From positions 1,404-65,403 of the forward strand of contig JBCDBO010000011.1 in assembly GCA_039183535.1 (NCBI GenBank): a stretch of DNA of 64,000 nucleotides. Direction: 5' to 3'. The notes below the pieces were generated by a model. The model did no database searches. It was not told the DNA's origin and saw only the letters and a list, made by a program, of their open reading frames with translations. The translations under genes were made by a program, and so were the position numbers. The stretch comes from Pseudomonadota bacterium (GTDB lineage Bacteria > Pseudomonadota > Gammaproteobacteria > Steroidobacterales > Woeseiaceae). Of this stretch, positions 3,255 to 9,129 are shown in pieces; position 1 is the stretch's first letter; each line of letters begins with the position of its first letter.

Positions 3255-5720
3255 TCAGTCGGTAAAGGCATCTGCGGCGTCGCGAATTCTTGTCGCTTCC
3301 GCAAGTCGCCAAGGTTGTACGTTTACCTCTTCCCGCCGAATTTTCGAACCGGCGGCAGCCAACGCCCTTGCGACCTCAGCATTGCCAGCGGCGAGTTCTG
3401 CCTCGGCGCGCCAGAGCGTGACGTCAGACGCCCATTGATTGCCGGGCGATGTCCACTGCGGTCCTGACTGAATGAGCGTGTAGGCTTCCCGCAGATTATC
3501 GGTGGCCTCGTCGATCATTCCTGTTTCCAATAGGGCTTTGCCGAGTATCGATTGAACTCGCCCGGCCGCTGGCGTCTGTTCGCCAACCGTCGCTTGCATT
3601 CGGCGAAGTATGTCGGGTAGGGCGCGCAGCGCTTGCTCGCTATTGCCCAAGTAAACATTGGCGCGGGCGAGATTGATTTCCAATGCAAGTCGAGTAAACG
3701 AGTCGTTGGGCAATGCGCCTTCAGCAATCTTAGTGGCCTCGAGCAGCGCCGATTTTGCCGTGTCGAACTGTCCAAGAGCGATGTAAGCGGCGGCCACGTT
3801 AAGCTGCGCGGACACCAGGCCCACATAGTCGTCACCGAAGCGTTGCTTCGTCCGCTCGATACATTTGGTGTATGTCGCAATCGCATCATGGAGGCGCCCA
3901 AGTCCGTCATAGGAGTAACCGAGGTTGCAAAGTACGGTGATAGCGCTCGTGCGCAGGGTGTAGCCGTTCTCTTCAGCGATCTGCAGTGCTTCTTCTTTAA
4001 GTCTCGCGCCGCGCTCGAAATCGCGATTAGCTTCGTGGACGGAGGCGAGGTTGGACAGGTGAACGTATTTCAAATAGACATCGTTCGGCGCCAGTGCCGC
4101 TAGTATTTCGCCCTTTCGTTCCAGGTTGTCGATGCTAATCTGTATTTGTTCTTTGGTTTGGCCCCCAGTCGGGTATAGCAGTGGCGTGGATCCCAGTACA
4201 TCTGCGAAAGCCAGCGTATCGTCCATACCGAGCGCCTGGTATTCCGCAATAGCCCGTTGCATAACCTCGCGGGCGCGGTCGTAGTCGCCAATCGATGTGT
4301 ACATAGGGCCAATGTCGCCGAGGGCCAATGCACGTTTTTCGTGTGGCATTGGCTTCGTCGTGTCATGGTAGTCCAGGACTCGCTCCGCGAACATAAGCGC
4401 CTTTTCGGAATCCCCCAGGCCCTGGTAGCCCGACGCAATCAACGCCATGATGTCGTGACGTATCTCGTGCGAGGTCTGGAGTTCGCGGTCTATCCGTAGC
4501 GCGGCTTCATCCATGACGTCGCGAAGCGTGATGTCGACGTTACCGGCGACCTCTGGATCAACGCGATCAAAAAGACTACGGACGAAAGTTGCTGTTTCGT
4601 TGGCACGTCGTGCTTCAACGGTAGCCTGTGAATACTGCCACCAAGTGGCTGCGAGACCGGTACTGAGACTCGCAACAACGGCGGCAATCGCCGTTACGAC
4701 GAGCCGGTTCCGACCAAGGAACTTGCGAAATACGTAGCGCGTTTCGTTGCGGCGTGAGCTGATTGGATAGCCGTCGAGATAGGCGGCTATCTCTAGCCGT
4801 AGTGCATCGACAGACGCGAATCGATCCGTGGCCGATGCGGCCGTGCATTGCTCGATGACTAAACTCAGATCGTGCGATACAACGGCGTTGCCGCCGCTCA
4901 GCAGTGTGCGCAACAGACAACCGAGCGCGTAGATGTCGCTGGCTACCGAATGCGGCTGGCCGCTCTTTAACTCTGGGGCAGCGTAGCCGGCAGAAAATCC
5001 CGTCGGGTGGCCGTCGTAGGATTTTCCCGTCCATTTGCCCACACCAAAATCTAATAGGCGGGCTCGATCATCGGCGACCAGAATGTTCGCTGGTTTGACG
5101 TCACCGTGAACAACAAACGACTGATGGCAATACGAGACCGCATCACAGACTTGTAGAAAAACGGCCAGGCGGCGAGCTTCGGAAAGCGGCGCGCAATAGA
5201 TATCAATTGGCTCGCCAGCAACATACTCCATAACGAAGTACGGCATGTCATCGCCGGTGACCCCGGCATCGATAATCCTCGCAATGTTTGGGTGCTCCAG
5301 TCGCGCTAAGTTCGACCGTTCGTCGAGAAAGAGTTGGCGCTGTTTCTCGGTGTGTTGAAACCGTGGCAGAAACTTTACGGCGACCGTTTGCTCATAAACG
5401 CCGTCGCAGCGTTCCGCCTTAAATACAATCCCCATACCGCCCCGATCGACTAGGGCCGTGATCTTGAATGGCCCAACCTCTGAGCCGACTCGGTCGAGGT
5501 CTTCTTTCAAGAGCATTTCGCTGAATAGAGACGGTGCGGTCTGGTCGATGCTGTACGGTGCCGACTGGTCATCCAGCGCGAGGTTGAGGAGTCGTTCGAG
5601 TCGCTGTGCGGCCTCAGGATGATCGCTTGCAACAGTCTGCAACATAGTGGCACGAGCGCTTGGCGATGCTGCGAGCAAGTCGTCCAGCGCCTTCTCGAAA
5701 TTGAAGTTGCTAGGCGGCAA
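3255..5720 (-). CDS. Membrane Ser/Thr protein kinase (Hanks type) with a C-terminal TPR-repeat region
   Basis: Kinase motifs: DRGGMGIVF (G-loop), VAVKFL, HGDVKPANIL, DFG, YAAPE. One TM helix (LVVTAIAAVVASLSTGLAATWW), then about 430 aa of TPR-like repeats. TTG start at 5720 behind AAGGA. Lies 70 nt downstream of the sigma gene on the same strand. Confidence 0.9.
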   Translation of the reverse strand: MPPSNFNFEKALDDLLAASPSARATMLQTVASDHPEAAQRLERLLNLALDDQSAPYSIDQTAPSLFSEMLLKEDLDRVGSEVGPFKITALVDRGGMGIVFKAERCDGVYEQTVAVKFLPRFQHTEKQRQLFLDERSNLARLEHPNIARIIDAGVTGDDMPYFVMEYVAGEPIDIYCAPLSEARRLAVFLQVCDAVSYCHQSFVVHGDVKPANILVADDRARLLDFGVGKWTGKSYDGHPTGFSAGYAAPELKSGQPHSVASDIYALGCLLRTLLSGGNAVVSHDLSLVIEQCTAASATDRFASVDALRLEIAAYLDGYPISSRRNETRYVFRKFLGRNRLVVTAIAAVVASLSTGLAATWWQYSQATVEARRANETATFVRSLFDRVDPEVAGNVDITLRDVMDEAALRIDRELQTSHEIRHDIMALIASGYQGLGDSEKALMFAERVLDYHDTTKPMPHEKRALALGDIGPMYTSIGDYDRAREVMQRAIAEYQALGMDDTLAFADVLGSTPLLYPTGGQTKEQIQISIDNLERKGEILAALAPNDVYLKYVHLSNLASVHEANRDFERGARLKEEALQIAEENGYTLRTSAITVLCNLGYSYDGLGRLHDAIATYTKCIERTKQRFGDDYVGLVSAQLNVAAAYIALGQFDTAKSALLEATKIAEGALPNDSFTRLALEINLARANVYLGNSEQALRALPDILRRMQATVGEQTPAAGRVQSILGKALLETGMIDEATDNLREAYTLIQSGPQWTSPGNQWASDVTLWRAEAELAAGNAEVARALAAAGSKIRREEVNVQPWRLAEATRIRDAADAFTD

Positions 5721-5790: not shown

Positions 5791-6351
5791 TTAATCGCTC
5801 GTCAAGTAGTCACCGACGAAGGCGCGGGCTTTCATCCAATTGCGCTGCGCGGAACGTATTGAGGTTCCGGTGGCTGCAGCGAGCTCCGCATCGGTGAGGC
5901 CGGTAAAGAACTTGAGCTCGAAGACGTCGGCGAGACTTTGGCTATGTGCAGCGAGTTTATCAATGGCTTCATTAATGAGCAGAACTTGCTCAGCTTCTGA
6001 CGCTACAGCGGCGTCGCTTTCTTCTAATTCGACGTGAGCCATATCCCCGCCGCGTTTGTCGGCGTTCCGCGTGCGGGCATAGTCTACGATGATCTGGCGC
6101 ATCGCTCGTGACGCGATGTTCAGCAAATGCGCACTGTTTTCGGCGGCGCCAAGCGATCGGCGCATTTTCAAATACGCTTCGTTGACGACCGCCGTGGTCT
6201 GCAGGGTTGGATTACCGCCAATGTTCTTGCGAATGCGATGGGCGACCCGTCGTAACTCCGAGTACAGCAGCTCCATCGCATGATCGTACGCAGCGTCATC
6301 GCCTTCCCGGTGCGCTTCAACAAGCTGCGTAATTCCGTCCACCTCTGTCAA
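5791..6351 (-). CDS. ECF-type RNA polymerase sigma factor of the kinase-associated kind (PF07638/TIGR02999-like)
   Basis: Sigma region 2 (LQTTAVVNEAYLKM ... IIVDYARTRNADKRGG) and region 4 HTH (TGLTDAELAAATGTSIRSAQRNW). TTG start behind GGAGGA. No anti-sigma gene adjacent; the next gene is a kinase instead. Confidence 0.85.
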   Translation of the reverse strand: MTEVDGITQLVEAHREGDDAAYDHAMELLYSELRRVAHRIRKNIGGNPTLQTTAVVNEAYLKMRRSLGAAENSAHLLNIASRAMRQIIVDYARTRNADKRGGDMAHVELEESDAAVASEAEQVLLINEAIDKLAAHSQSLADVFELKFFTGLTDAELAAATGTSIRSAQRNWMKARAFVGDYLTSD

Positions 6352-6515: not shown

Positions 6516-7223
6516 ATGTCTAGGTTGTCGCTATTGGCACGCGGGTGGGTTGCTGGTGGGGCTGTGCTTGCGCTCTTTGTCGTTGCTGCACATGCCCAAC
6601 AAACCATCGACGCAGAGATTGAGCAGGCGATCGCTGCGATGCGTGCAGCGGGGCAGTCGGAGCAGCAGATAGCGGATTTTGTTAAGGCCATGGACCAAGT
6701 GCGCGCGATGAGCGTACCGCCTCCACAGGCTACCGGTCGTCAGGCGAATGACATTCAGGCCGCGACGGGAATGACGGACGAGGAAATGGCGCTCGTGGGT
6801 CCGATGGCCAACGCGATTAAGGCGCGTCAGGACCAGCAAATCGGCGAGATGCTGCAACGTGATATCGACGCGTTCGAGAAACGGTACGCCCACAAGCCGG
6901 AGATTGCCGTTACGTTCGATGGTAACGACATCACGATGAAGCGCATCGATTGCCAAGGCGGAGACGCGTTCAACGTCTCGGCGCAAGCGGCTCCCACCGT
7001 TCATCACCAGGCGGGAATGATGATCAGCGCGCACCGCGGCTGGAGTGTTTCACAGAACAAATGGCTCGCCATGATTGGTGTCCAACAAGGCGGCAACAAC
7101 TATCGCGCCGACCTGCCAGTTAGTGCGATTAGCGAGACACGCGTTCATTTTGACGGTGTAGTCACGTCGAGTCGCGGTGATAGCAAACGCTTAGTGTTTA
7201 CCGCATCGTGTGAGCCGTCATGA
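6516..7223 (+). CDS. Exported protein, paralogue 1 of a two-cysteine C-terminal-Cys domain family, with an N-terminal helical extension
   Basis: ATG at 6516 behind AAAGGAGG. Signal peptide MSRLSLLARGWVAGGAVLALFVVAAHA. C-terminal about 110 aa share VTFDG...RIDCQGG...LVFTASCEPS with the next four genes. Confidence 0.75.
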   Translation: MSRLSLLARGWVAGGAVLALFVVAAHAQQTIDAEIEQAIAAMRAAGQSEQQIADFVKAMDQVRAMSVPPPQATGRQANDIQAATGMTDEEMALVGPMANAIKARQDQQIGEMLQRDIDAFEKRYAHKPEIAVTFDGNDITMKRIDCQGGDAFNVSAQAAPTVHHQAGMMISAHRGWSVSQNKWLAMIGVQQGGNNYRADLPVSAISETRVHFDGVVTSSRGDSKRLVFTASCEPS

Positions 7224-7675
7224 GACGGGTCACTCCAACTGTAATCGCGATGTTTGCACTAGTAATCACCGCCTGCGGATCTGGCTCATCCGACTCGCTC
7301 AGCGGAACGAACGGCAAGCGAGACGCCAGTAAGGGTTCGGGCAAAGGCACTGCGACGTTAGACGGCGTCAGCGAGACGTTGGAAACGTGGCCGGTCATGT
7401 GCGGGCTTACCCGCGACGGCAACAGCTTCGTTATGCGCGGCGGCTCACCGGACGGCGACGACAACCCAAGAAACAACGTTCTCAACTTATCAATCGGCGG
7501 CGAGAAACAACCCCGGCCTCTCGTTAGCATCGTCTACAACCCGCCGGGCGACGATACGCGTGAAGAGTCCGTCACGCTGACCGGCGATGACGCCGTATGG
7601 ATCGATGGACTCCGTTTCACATGGACGGGGCAGACGCGCAGCGGCAAGACGCTGGAAGTGGACATCGAATGCTAG
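7220..7675 (+). CDS. Lipoprotein, paralogue 2 of the two-cysteine family
   Basis: ATGA overlap with the previous gene. Lipobox LVITAC. Motifs ATLDG...WPVMCGLT...TLEVDIEC at the very C-terminus. Confidence 0.75.
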   Translation: MRRVTPTVIAMFALVITACGSGSSDSLSGTNGKRDASKGSGKGTATLDGVSETLETWPVMCGLTRDGNSFVMRGGSPDGDDNPRNNVLNLSIGGEKQPRPLVSIVYNPPGDDTREESVTLTGDDAVWIDGLRFTWTGQTRSGKTLEVDIEC

Positions 7676-8124
7676 GTAAACGACTAACGCTTGCAACTTT
7701 GCTGGGCCTAACACTGTCTGGCGCATTCACCGCGTGTACGAAGGGGCAGTCAGCAGCGAAGCGTGAGGCCGTTATTCGGGTCGACTATTTAGACACAACG
7801 TTCAATTTCACGATGAATGAAAACGCGGACTGCGGCACGCTTGACGATGGTCTGCCGTACGTCGAAGCGAAATGGCTCCAAGAACCGTCTTTCGAAAAGG
7901 AGCCGCCGTTTTTCATTCAGGGGCGTGGCGGTTGGACAGGCAACACTTATGAAGAACCGCACACATGGATCTTCGGTGTCTACGCGACCGGCAACCGTAC
8001 GCAGGAACTAGGCTTTGCGATCTACGGGGAAGAGCTCCCTGGGTTCGGTGCAGACAACGTTTTTCGCTGGTCAGGTGTGACACCGCTTGGTCAAGAAATG
8101 ACTGTGGAGGTGATCTGCCCATGA
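7669..8124 (+). CDS. Lipoprotein, paralogue 3 of the two-cysteine family
   Basis: ATG at 7669 overlaps the previous stop by 7 nt. Lipobox GAFTAC. Motifs NADCGTLD ... MTVEVICP at the C-terminus. The ORF-track start at 7597 lies inside the upstream gene. Confidence 0.75.
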   Translation: MLGKRLTLATLLGLTLSGAFTACTKGQSAAKREAVIRVDYLDTTFNFTMNENADCGTLDDGLPYVEAKWLQEPSFEKEPPFFIQGRGGWTGNTYEEPHTWIFGVYATGNRTQELGFAIYGEELPGFGADNVFRWSGVTPLGQEMTVEVICP

Positions 8125-8579
8125 TGTTCTTTGTAAGGAATCGATGTTGTGCGGTCTGGGTGGCATCTACGTGTTTGCTATGCGCTTGTGGTAGCGACAT
8201 GGTCTCACCATCAAACGCAGCGCAAACCAACGTAGCGGCCACCGTCGAGTTCTCGCTGCATAATCAATCGGTGTCACTGCCGGTATTGATTTCCTGCACC
8301 GACGGCGTTTATGGCGTTGGTCTGCGTGCACAGGCGACGCCGGGAAAAGACGCAACGGTTGATGTTCTGCGATGGACGGGGTCCCCACCCGACGAGGAAG
8401 GTTTAAAAGCGGTTATCAGCTACGACGTGGCGGGCGGACGCTATCTCGCGAGTGACGATGTCAGTCGCGACGGCGAGTGGCTGTCCTGGTCGGGCGAATT
8501 CACATTTCTGAAGAAGACGGATACCGGGTCCCGTAAAGCAGGCAAGGTGCCGGCTTCAGTGCGTTTCAAGTGTTCGTAA
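8121..8579 (+). CDS. Lipoprotein, paralogue 4 of the two-cysteine family
   Basis: ATGA overlap with the previous gene; GGAGG 10 nt upstream. Lipobox LLCAC. Motifs VLISCTDG ... SVRFKCS at the C-terminus. Confidence 0.75.
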   Translation: MMFFVRNRCCAVWVASTCLLCACGSDMVSPSNAAQTNVAATVEFSLHNQSVSLPVLISCTDGVYGVGLRAQATPGKDATVDVLRWTGSPPDEEGLKAVISYDVAGGRYLASDDVSRDGEWLSWSGEFTFLKKTDTGSRKAGKVPASVRFKCS

Positions 8580-8646
8580 AACACACACACGTTAGCGACG
8601 AGTGCGTACTCACACTTACTGGCTATGACTCAGTGCCGAGATTGAA

Positions 8647-9129
8647 ATGCGACGCGGATTAATCGTCGTTGGTGTATTGCTGGTTATAGCTCTCGCGGTG
8701 TTTGGCTTTCGAACCTACAGACCCGCGGAATCCGCTAGGGAACTTCACGGTGCCGAGAGTACGACTGGCGCGTTGTCGCGAGAGATGGCTACTGTTTCGA
8801 ATGAATCATCGAACACCGTCACGTTCGACGGGCAAGTTTATGCGCTTAGCGTCTTGGAACCGTGTGGAATCGGTTCGGACGGACAGCTACACCTTGTCGC
8901 TGTAACCGTGAACGATTATGGGTCAGTGCAGCCAGGCGGCCCGCAGTTTTCAGTTCAAAGTGGGCCGTGGGAAACCACTGCATACTTTTTTGCCGGCTCA
9001 GGAGAGGTTCGCGCACTTTCTCAGCGCGGTAACAAACGAATGACACTTGACGCGGGTCGCCTGCGCATTGACGGCCGAACCGATGGTGTTGACGCCGGCG
9101 CCATGAGTGTCGACCTAGCTTGCCCGTAG
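8647..9129 (+). CDS. Membrane-anchored paralogue 5 of the two-cysteine family
   Basis: N-terminal TM anchor (LIVVGVLLVIALAVFGF). Motifs VTFDGQVYALSVLEPCGIGS ... MSVDLACP at the C-terminus. Confidence 0.7.
   Translation: MRRGLIVVGVLLVIALAVFGFRTYRPAESARELHGAESTTGALSREMATVSNESSNTVTFDGQVYALSVLEPCGIGSDGQLHLVAVTVNDYGSVQPGGPQFSVQSGPWETTAYFFAGSGEVRALSQRGNKRMTLDAGRLRIDGRTDGVDAGAMSVDLACP

What the first reader, a model, noticed from the sequence alone, without database searches (positions are those of the whole stretch)
6516..9129. Five tandem paralogues of an unrecognised ~110-aa exported domain with two invariant cysteines, one within the last 1-5 residues
Seen: five consecutive genes encode proteins whose C-terminal ~110 residues line up.
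- A first strand reads AVTFDG / ATLDG / IRVDY / TVEFS / TVTFDG.
- The first Cys follows about 10-15 residues later (KRIDCQGG, WPVMCGLT, NADCGTLD, VLISCTDG, LEPCGIGS).
- A late DG/W-containing strand follows (HFDGVV, WIDGLRFTW, FRWSGV, LSWSGEF, LRIDGR).
- The final strand ends in Cys at the extreme C-terminus (LVFTASCEPS, LEVDIEC, TVEVICP, SVRFKCS, SVDLACP).
- Export signals differ: one Sec signal, three lipoboxes and one TM anchor.

Inference: this is a disulfide-stapled beta-rich periplasmic or outer-membrane domain amplified in situ. The differing anchors suggest the paralogues sit in different envelope layers. The TFDG strand followed by a Cys faintly recalls the start of vWD domains like the one in the downstream gene, but that resemblance is weak.
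Basis: seen in the sequence. Interest (0 to 1): 0.75.

Follow-up and report, generated by a model that had tools for sequence, protein, structure and literature searches.

The report
Five tandem LpqH-fold envelope proteins
Five neighbouring genes of an uncultured proteobacterium encode old, very diverged copies of one small exported all-beta domain with two invariant cysteines; the domain is a previously unannotated distant relative of the mycobacterial 19-kDa lipoprotein antigen LpqH, and it sits in a conserved operon with an auto-cleaving von Willebrand D protein.

Summary
G1-G5 (6516-9129, + strand) are real, translationally coupled genes under purifying selection. Each ends in a ~110-residue domain with exactly two Cys, the second 0-5 residues from the C-terminus.

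Pairwise similarity among the five is not significant (11-25% identity). Orthologues from about eight related operons make it significant at profile level:
- Each orthogroup matches the profile of the others end to end (hhalign 72-98%).
- A 37-sequence alignment has three invariant columns: Cys, Gly, Cys.

The domain is not a new fold:
- The family profile's best hit in the whole PDB is a Pfam PF05481 protein, the LpqH orthologue 4xin (E 0.01-0.018). The match runs end to end and reproduces all three invariant residues.
- The AlphaFold model of G4 (pLDDT 88.8) has M. tuberculosis LpqH (7fds, 4zjm) as its top two Foldseek hits (TM 0.57-0.62).
- Pfam and NCBIfam do not detect any member.

The resemblance to vWD is not supported (hhalign 0.5%).

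The family is very rare: about 17 clusters among 1.84 billion representatives. It occurs in arrays next to an ECF43-like sigma/Ser-Thr kinase pair or a LuxR-type regulator, usually with a GDPH-bearing VWD protein. Its function is inferred, not shown.

The parts
3255..5720 (-). Ser/Thr protein kinase with one TM segment and a C-terminal TPR region, the probable activator of the adjacent sigma factor.
   Evidence: Pfam Pkinase 6.7e-35 and TPR_12 2.2e-25. The same gene pair stands divergent to the operon in L001, L005-L008 and L017-L019.
5791..6351 (-). ECF sigma factor of the kinase-linked (ECF43-like) kind, divergent from G1.
   Evidence: Pfam PF07638 Sigma70_ECF 2.7e-37. The sequence reads LQTTAVVNEAYL where canonical ECFs have DAED (translation). 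EcfP has STTA there and is activated by Thr phosphorylation (PMC8999054).
6516..7223 (+). G1, 235 aa. It has a Sec signal (AHA|QQ), a conserved ~95-aa helical N-terminal region and a C-terminal LpqH-like domain (nt 6891-7220; Cys145, Cys232).
   Evidence: Family HMM 73.5 bits. The N-terminal region has no significant PDB or Pfam match.
7220..7675 (+). G2, 151 aa lipoprotein (lipobox ITAC|G) with the LpqH-like domain at nt 7334-7672. It ends ...DIEC and overlaps G1 by 4 nt.
   Evidence: Family HMM 119 bits.
7669..8124 (+). G3, 151 aa lipoprotein (FTAC|T) with the LpqH-like domain at nt 7759-8121. It ends ...VICP and overlaps G2 by 7 nt.
   Evidence: Homologues at 53-57% identity.. Family HMM 103 bits.
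8121..8579 (+). G4, 152 aa lipoprotein (LCAC|G; orthologues read LVGC|G) with the LpqH-like domain at nt 8226-8576. It ends ...FKCS and overlaps G3 by 4 nt.
   Evidence: AF2 pLDDT 88.8, pTM 0.82. Foldseek top hits are LpqH 7fds_B (TM 0.62) and 4zjm_D. Family HMM 58 bits.
8647..9129 (+). G5, 160 aa, with an N-terminal TM anchor and the LpqH-like domain at nt 8803-9126. It ends ...LACP. NCBI did not call this gene in either MAG.
   Evidence: dN/dS 0.18. Orthologues P0023, P0029 and P0034. AF2 pLDDT 87.9. Family HMM 89.7 bits. Cluster members come only from Logan.
9149..12631 (+). G6, 1160 aa secreted protein, the last gene of the operon. It has an N-terminal region with no family match, a Cys-rich segment, a Gly/Pro-rich linker, a VWD domain with a GDPH motif (aa 627-783, about nt 11027-11497) and three C-terminal ~95-aa repeats.
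   Evidence: Pfam VWD 5.8e-12. Best PDB sequence hit is FCGBP 8rde, 1.8e-22. GDPH is conserved in six orthologues. The signal peptide, Cys-rich segment, linker and repeats were read from the translation; internal repeats also appear in the blastn.

Best explanation
G1-G5 are five anciently diverged paralogues of one ~110-residue, nine-stranded all-beta exported domain. The domain is a remote homologue of the mycobacterial 19-kDa lipoprotein antigen LpqH (Pfam PF05481).

Inferred disulfide: the Cys in strand 3 and the Cys that closes the last strand are the only Cys in each mature domain, and LpqH has both. They most likely form an intramolecular disulfide that ties the C-terminal strand to the sheet after export.

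Inferred localisation: the copies carry different targeting signals.
- G1 is a soluble periplasmic protein with an extra helical N-terminal region.
- G2-G4 are lipoproteins without Asp at +2, so they probably go to the outer membrane.
- G5 is anchored in the inner membrane.

Inferred operon logic: the genes are translationally coupled and followed by a secreted VWD protein with a GDPH auto-cleavage motif. The divergent ECF43-like sigma factor (QTTA in place of DAED) is probably switched on by phosphorylation from the adjacent TM Ser/Thr kinase.

Inferred function: the set works as compartment-specific binding modules that accompany a large secreted protein, here the VWD protein.

Shown here: homology among the five, the link to LpqH in sequence and predicted fold, purifying selection and conserved synteny. 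Localisation, the disulfide, regulation and function are all inferred.
For: Real genes: dN/dS 0.09-0.58.

One family:
- Leave-one-out hhalign 72-98% end to end.
- Invariant Cys/Gly/Cys in 37 sequences, with exactly two Cys in every domain.
- Predicted strands of the G4 and G5 models agree at 75% of aligned positions, against 45-53% when shifted.

Link to LpqH:
- The family profile against 177,635 PDB sequences ranks LpqH orthologue 4xin first, E 0.018 and 0.01. The match runs end to end (profile 3-114, chain 17-126) with both Cys and the Gly identical.
- 4xin is a true PF05481 member, 9.9e-33.
- hhalign of the family against a 4xin+4zjm profile gives 92%, E 6.6e-7, score 40.3. Column-shuffled controls reach at most 15.1. 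The result is stable (88-92.5%) when any one orthogroup is left out.
- Foldseek with the G4 model ranks 7fds_B (E 1.2e-3, prob 1.00, TM 0.62) and 4zjm_D (TM 0.57-0.60) first and second of 350,542 chains. The next folds reach TM 0.46 or less.
- The LpqH structure is described as having a C-terminal 'beta strand 9' (PMC5341126), which matches nine strands in the models.

Operon:
- Start/stop overlaps of 4, 7 and 4 nt between G1-G4.
- Conserved synteny with a VWD protein and a regulator in independent contigs.
- Sigma factor is PF07638 and the kinase is Pkinase plus TPR.
- The mechanism for ECF43-type sigma factors is described in PMC8999054 and PMC13147305.
Against: - No member matches PF05481 or any Pfam or NCBIfam model, even at E 10.
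- The PDB sequence E-value is only 0.01-0.018, and M. tuberculosis LpqH itself is not hit by the profile.
- Single orthogroup profiles do not recognise LpqH.
- The OG3-dominated profile A4 gives only 2% against LpqH.
- A two-sequence LpqH HMM ranks family ORFs high among 1,938 ORFs but not significantly.
- The G5 model has no LpqH chain among its top 50 Foldseek hits.
- AlphaFold was trained with 4zjm in the PDB, so the fold evidence is not fully independent of that entry.
- Nothing here tests localisation, regulation or any interaction with G6.
- Two operon variants lack an adjacent VWD gene (L003, L020).
Confidence: 0.72

Rival explanations
1. The domain is a genuinely new family, and the likeness to LpqH is convergent. 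On this view a small meander beta-domain stapled by a terminal disulfide arose twice.
For: - No Pfam or NCBIfam hit.
- Borderline PDB E-value.
- Single orthogroups do not see LpqH.
- The G5 model lacks LpqH among its top Foldseek hits.
- The deep search returned no actinobacterial LpqH.
Against: - Two different kinds of search, sequence profile against PDB and predicted fold against PDB, each pick the same small family as best hit out of more than 170,000 entries.
- The alignment is end to end and keeps all three invariant residues, including the Cys at the very C-terminus.
- Shuffled and reversed controls fail.
Confidence: 0.15
2. The five are not all one family. G4 (OG4) only mimics the Cys pattern, and just G1/G5 and G2/G3 are truly related.
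For: - OG4 pairwise profile scores are weak, 0.6-19.5%.
- Its MAFFT placement shifts between input sets, once even misplacing its first Cys.
- Its leave-one-out probability is the lowest, 72%.
Against: - OG4 against the rest still aligns over 99 columns at E 3e-5.
- G4's model is the one that hits LpqH directly, and LpqH is the family the other four reach by sequence.
- G4's strand pattern matches G5's.
Confidence: 0.06
3. Functional rival. The proteins have nothing to do with G6. They are a diversifying set of envelope or surface lipoprotein antigens or adhesins, as LpqH is viewed in mycobacteria, carried on a mobile island. Copy number and sequence would then be driven by host, phage or predator pressure.
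For: - Arrays vary in content (2-6 members) between operons.
- Some arrays lack an adjacent VWD gene or sit next to an HExxH protein instead.
- IS elements, Tra genes and a tRNA gene lie beside the loci.
Against: - dN/dS of 0.09-0.29 for G2-G5 shows purifying rather than diversifying selection.
- Orthogroups are stable across operons.
- A large secreted protein follows the array in every locus whose contig extends far enough, except L003.
Confidence: 0.3
4. The small domains are degenerate N-terminal pieces of VWD domains, as the first reader hinted from the TFDG...C motif.
For: G1 and G5 read VTFDG, and G6's VWD reads ISFDG immediately after GDPH.
Against: - The family profile against the VWD profile of six G6 orthologues gives hhalign 0.5%, score 14.2, with no register.
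- No member hits PF00094.
- Foldseek lists no VWD structure for either model.
Confidence: 0.02

Closest known systems
LpqH / 19-kDa lipoprotein antigen family of mycobacteria (Pfam PF05481 Myco_19_kDa; PDB 4ZJM, 7FDS, 4XIN)
   Same: - About 110-residue all-beta domain behind an export signal.
- V-x-[IL/F]-D-G first strand, then a Cys about 10 residues later.
- A late x-[FY]-x-[IW]-[ST]-G motif whose Gly is invariant.
- A last strand ending in Cys at or next to the C-terminus.
- Best sequence hit and best fold hit in the PDB.
   Different: - Below every library threshold; sequence identity is about 10-17%.
- Found in Pseudomonadota MAGs and metagenomes rather than Actinobacteria.
- Occurs as arrays of 2-6 ancient paralogues with three kinds of anchor rather than as a single lipoprotein.
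- Sits in an operon with a VWD/GDPH or other large secreted protein and a dedicated regulator.
- No Thr-rich glycosylated linker of the mycobacterial kind is evident.
Avidin / lipocalin-like small meander beta-barrels
   Same: The fold-search lists of both models contain avidins, lipocalin-like proteins and a designed beta-barrel at TM 0.35-0.46. This suggests a curved up-and-down sheet that could hold a ligand.
   Different: - Their scores are clearly lower than those for LpqH.
- There is no sequence signal.
- They lack the Cys pair and the C-terminal Cys.
ECF43-type sigma factor plus Hanks-type kinase modules (EcfP/PknT of Vibrio parahaemolyticus, EcfK/PknS of Xanthomonas citri)
   Same: - The sigma factor gene lies next to a TM Ser/Thr kinase gene and no anti-sigma factor gene is present.
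- The sigma-2.2 region reads QTTA in place of the acidic DAED motif (EcfP has STTA).
- The pair is divergent from the operon it presumably controls.
   Different: - The target operon is different (LpqH-like array plus VWD protein).
- The kinase carries a long TPR region.
- Phosphorylation was not tested.
- Related operons use an AAA-TPR-LuxR regulator instead.
GDPH-cleaving VWD domains of FCGBP, mucins and RGM (for G6, not for the small proteins)
   Same: G6 has a PF00094 domain that begins with a conserved GDPH. Its best PDB sequence match is FCGBP.
   Different: - G6 is bacterial.
- It lacks the C8/TIL modules that accompany VWD in animal proteins (none found).
- It is flanked by a Gly/Pro-rich linker and three unrelated C-terminal repeats.

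Membership tests
Pfam PF05481 Myco_19_kDa (LpqH) | Matches the family HMM at its gathering score (23 bits). | tested here: not met
   None of the 37 family members matches PF05481 even at E 10. The control 4xin scores 113 bits.
Pfam PF05481 Myco_19_kDa (LpqH) | Profile-level homology to solved family members over the whole domain. | tested here: met
   - hmmsearch of the family profile against the PDB ranks 4xin first, E 0.018 and 0.01, profile 3-114 against chain 17-126.
- hhalign against a 4xin+4zjm profile gives 92%, E 6.6e-7.
- Shuffled controls reach at most 15.1 against a real score of 40.3.
Pfam PF05481 Myco_19_kDa (LpqH) | Same fold as the LpqH crystal structures. | tested here: inconclusive
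   - The G4 model has 7fds_B and 4zjm_D as its top two hits, TM 0.57-0.62, prob 1.00.
- The G5 model has no LpqH chain in its top 50.
- These are predicted models, not experimental structures.
Pfam PF05481 Myco_19_kDa (LpqH) | Conserved Cys early in the domain and Cys at the C-terminal end. | tested here: met
   Both Cys are invariant in 37 sequences and align with the two Cys of 4xin and 4zjm. Whether they are disulfide-bonded was not measured.
Pfam PF05481 Myco_19_kDa (LpqH) | Lipoprotein signal peptide with a lipobox. | tested here: inconclusive
   Met for G2, G3 and G4. Not met for G1 (Sec signal) or G5 (TM anchor). Read from the sequences and orthologue alignments; no dedicated predictor was available.
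VWD domain (PF00094), for the small proteins | Sequence or profile similarity to a VWD domain. | tested here: not met
   hhalign of the family against the VWD profile of G6 orthologues gives 0.5%. There are no Pfam hits.
ECF43-like phosphorylation-activated sigma factors | ECF sigma factor encoded next to a Ser/Thr kinase, with Ser/Thr residues replacing the DAED motif of region 2.2. | tested here: met
   PF07638 and Pkinase genes are adjacent. The sigma factor reads LQTTAVVNEAYL. The criteria come from PMC8999054. Formal assignment to an ECF group and phosphorylation itself were not tested.

The most novel reading that the evidence does not exclude
The five LpqH-fold proteins form a dedicated, envelope-spanning chain: one anchored in the inner membrane, one soluble in the periplasm and three outer-membrane lipoproteins. 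This chain hands over, holds or displays the auto-cleaving VWD protein, or another large secreted protein in variant operons. It would be a new kind of accessory apparatus for surface proteins in Gram-negative bacteria, switched on by a kinase-activated ECF sigma factor.
Probability: 0.12. Interest if true: 0.75.

Novelty: new variant of a known kind. Interest (0 to 1): 0.45.

Why it matters
- LpqH is one of the most studied mycobacterial antigens, yet its own cellular role is unknown. To my knowledge the family is regarded as actinobacterial.
- A proteobacterial branch in a defined operon, with a dedicated regulator, several anchors and a large secreted partner, gives a genetic context from which the function of the fold could be worked out.
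- The finding supplies an alignment that could seed a new family model. Current libraries miss all members, and NCBI annotation misses G5 and truncates G2 and G4.
- Bacterial VWD proteins with an intact GDPH motif are also little studied.

Tried and rejected
- A concatenation of the five proteins as one query for the search for homologous proteins returned nothing and cost one search.
- Scans of the metagenome and genome collections with the G3 alignment added only three loci of an already known type, plus one spurious 19-residue match (L014).
The substitute A4 lacks OG4 and is dominated by OG3. It recovered the family but is a poor bridge to LpqH, 2% by hhalign.
- Single orthogroup profiles against 4xin gave no significant match.
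- A two-sequence LpqH HMM against all ORFs of the loci showed enrichment of family ORFs, but no significant hit.
- VWD origin of the small domain was rejected.
- The N-terminal helical half of G1 has no significant PDB match with an eight-sequence profile.
- Literature searches for the PDB codes and for an LpqH disulfide found nothing usable.
- Promoter and terminator scans gave nothing above chance.
Full report
**1. What is in the sequence**

Five ORFs on the + strand match the finding:

| Gene | Coordinates | Length |
|---|---|---|
| G1 | 6516-7223 | 235 aa |
| G2 | 7220-7675 | 151 aa |
| G3 | 7669-8124 | 151 aa |
| G4 | 8121-8579 | 152 aa |
| G5 | 8647-9129 | 160 aa |

- G1/G2, G2/G3 and G3/G4 overlap by 4, 7 and 4 nt. 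G5 follows after 67 nt, and the 1160-aa G6 (9149-12631) after a further 19 nt. This is an operon layout.
- The window comes from a MAG labelled only 'Pseudomonadota bacterium'. The proteins are 'hypothetical' in NCBI, G5 is not annotated at all, and G2 and G4 are annotated with truncated N-termini.
- A second MAG contig (L001) is 95% identical over the region. Nei-Gojobori dN/dS for G1-G5 is 0.58 (only nine substitutions), 0.29, 0.16, 0.09 and 0.18, with all frames intact. All five are genes under purifying selection.

**2. Are the five really paralogues?**

Pairwise, the answer is no. All-against-all blastp and phmmer give nothing significant, and identities are 11-25%. The question therefore needed orthologues.

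G3 has homologues at 53-57% identity. Their contigs carry the same kind of operon. Each consists of three elements:
- a divergent regulator, either ECF sigma factor plus Ser/Thr kinase or an AAA-TPR-LuxR protein;
- a ~240-aa G1-like gene followed by two to five ~150-aa genes;
- usually a large VWD protein.

The small proteins fall cleanly into five orthogroups that correspond to G1-G5. Each group keeps both Cys and the terminal position of the second.

Profile-level tests:
- Domain-only profile-profile comparison gives OG1-OG5 82.5% (E 1e-5, 99 columns) and OG2-OG3 91% (E 9e-7).
- The remaining pairs are weak but mostly full-length and in register. Nine of ten score above all 20 reversed controls.
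- In leave-one-orthogroup-out tests, each group finds the profile of the others at 97.1, 97.1, 92.4, 72.3 and 97.6% over 99-107 columns.
- MAFFT alignments of 23 and of 37 domains have exactly three invariant columns: Cys, a Gly in the late F-x-W-S-G-x-T motif, and Cys.
- All 37 domains have exactly two Cys. The second lies 0-5 residues from the end and is followed by Pro in 23 cases.

G4/OG4 is the weak link, because MAFFT shifts it in some input sets.

The five-fold duplication is old. Orthologues are far more alike than paralogues.

**3. What the domain is**

- No member matches anything in Pfam or NCBIfam.
- A profile of the family searched against all PDB sequences ranks 4xin first. 4xin is named 'LpqH orthologue' (E 0.018 with 23 sequences, 0.01 with 37).
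  - The match covers profile positions 3-114 and chain residues 17-126.
  - The chain also ends ...VVTC. The first Cys and the invariant Gly are matched as well.
- 4xin is a bona fide member of PF05481, 'Mycobacterium 19 kDa lipoprotein antigen'.
- Against a small profile of 4xin plus M. tuberculosis LpqH (4zjm), hhalign gives 92% (E 6.6e-7, score 40.3, 89 columns).
  - Reversed and column-shuffled controls score at most 15.1.
  - The result survives removal of any one orthogroup, 88-92.5%.
- AlphaFold2 models without templates are confident: G5 pLDDT 87.9 and pTM 0.79; G4 pLDDT 88.8 and pTM 0.82.
  - Both show nine to ten beta-strands.
  - The strands coincide at 75% of aligned positions, against 45-53% when shifted.
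- Foldseek with the G4 model ranks M. tuberculosis LpqH 7fds_B first (E 1.2e-3, prob 1.00, TM 0.62) and 4zjm_D second (TM 0.57-0.60). All other folds are at or below TM 0.46.
- A paper on LpqH refers to 'beta strand 9' at the C-terminus of the structure (PMC5341126).

Points against the link:
- The G5 model does not list LpqH among its top 50 hits.
- Single orthogroup profiles do not see LpqH.
- The OG3-dominated profile A4 does not see LpqH.
- A two-sequence LpqH HMM only enriches the family without reaching significance.

I conclude, at about 80%, that this is a remote branch of the LpqH fold, beyond the reach of the current family model. The suggested likeness to vWD is not supported (0.5%).

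**4. How common it is**

A full HMMER scan of 1.84 billion representative proteins found 20 hits at E <= 1e-3. About 17 of these are true members.
- All are ~146-170-aa lipoproteins or anchored proteins, or ~235-aa G1-like proteins.
- All end in Cys plus 0-5 residues.
- None is an actinobacterial LpqH.

Scans of 241 million metagenome records and 185,579 species genomes added almost nothing. The window itself has no further copy.

Variant arrays exist:
- G1-like plus G3-like genes next to a 633-aa HExxH protein (L020).
- Two still more diverged members in L023.

**5. Context and likely working**

Shown:
- The divergent genes are a PF07638 ECF sigma factor and a Pkinase-TM-TPR protein.
- G6 has a VWD domain whose GDPH motif is kept in all six orthologues examined. 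It is closest to FCGBP in the PDB.

Read from the sequence:
- The sigma factor has QTTA where canonical ECFs have DAED. EcfP of Vibrio parahaemolyticus has STTA at this position.
- G1 has a Sec signal with a conserved A-x-A-Q site.
- G2-G4 have lipoboxes followed by Gly or Thr at +2.
- G5 has an uncleaved hydrophobic N-terminus.

Inferred:
- The kinase activates the sigma factor by Thr phosphorylation, as described for ECF43 members (PMC8999054; PMC13147305), and the sigma factor drives the operon.
- The five domains are oxidised after export, so that the terminal Cys staples the last strand.
- They occupy three envelope locations.
- They act as binding modules together with the large secreted protein.

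The function of LpqH itself in mycobacteria is unknown. The homology therefore gives a fold, not an activity. The main functional rival is that these are independent envelope lipoproteins on a mobile island. Supporting this rival, IS elements, Tra genes and a tRNA gene lie nearby.

**6. Verdict**

- It is partly wrong: the domain is not an unrecognised fold, it is not vWD-like, and the amplification is not recent.
- Novelty: a new variant of a known kind, namely a very rare Gram-negative branch of the LpqH fold that occurs as multi-anchor arrays in a regulated operon.
- Interest is moderate at 0.45.

Noticed in passing
window 8647-9129; also 7220-7675 and 8121-8579: NCBI annotation of both MAGs does not call G5 at all. 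It starts G2 and G4 downstream (141 and 126 aa), which removes their signal peptides. G5 is nevertheless conserved (dN/dS 0.18) and has orthologues.
   Followed up: yes
window 9149-12631: G6 is a bacterial VWD protein with an intact GDPH auto-cleavage motif, and its best PDB sequence match is human FCGBP (1.8e-22). It has a GGGPDGGGPD-type linker and is 1160 aa here against 1372 aa in the 95%-identical MAG. It also has three C-terminal ~95-aa repeats with no family assignment.
   Followed up: partly
window 5791-6351 (-) and 3255-5720 (-): The ECF sigma factor reads QTTA where canonical ECFs have the acidic DAED motif, and it sits next to a TM Ser/Thr kinase with a TPR region. This is the signature of phosphorylation-activated ECF43-type sigma factors.
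   Followed up: partly
window 12803-12878 (-); L005 4654-5676 and 14664-20429; L017 10410-15443: A tRNA-Asn gene lies directly after G6. In related contigs the operon is flanked by IS110, IS21 and IS66 transposases or by TraG/TraH/TraF genes. The region upstream of the kinase also differs between the two 95%-identical MAGs. Together these suggest a mobile island.
   Followed up: partly
L020 8027-12628; L023 239-2574: Variant arrays exist. In L020 a G1-like and a G3-like protein precede a 96-aa lipoprotein and a 633-aa HExxH protein instead of a VWD protein. L023 holds two more diverged members (156 and 188 aa, ending ...VVCNAY and ...VRCR), with the G1-like gene last.
   Followed up: partly
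window 6597-6890 (G1 residues about 28-125): The N-terminal half of G1 is a conserved helical region (D-x-E-I-x-x-A-x-x-x-M-R-A-x-G-Q-S-E...) present in all G1-like proteins. It has no significant match in the PDB or Pfam.
   Followed up: partly
L009 5273-5617: One operon has a 114-aa multi-TM protein inserted between the G4-like and G5-like genes. It is absent from the window.
   Followed up: no
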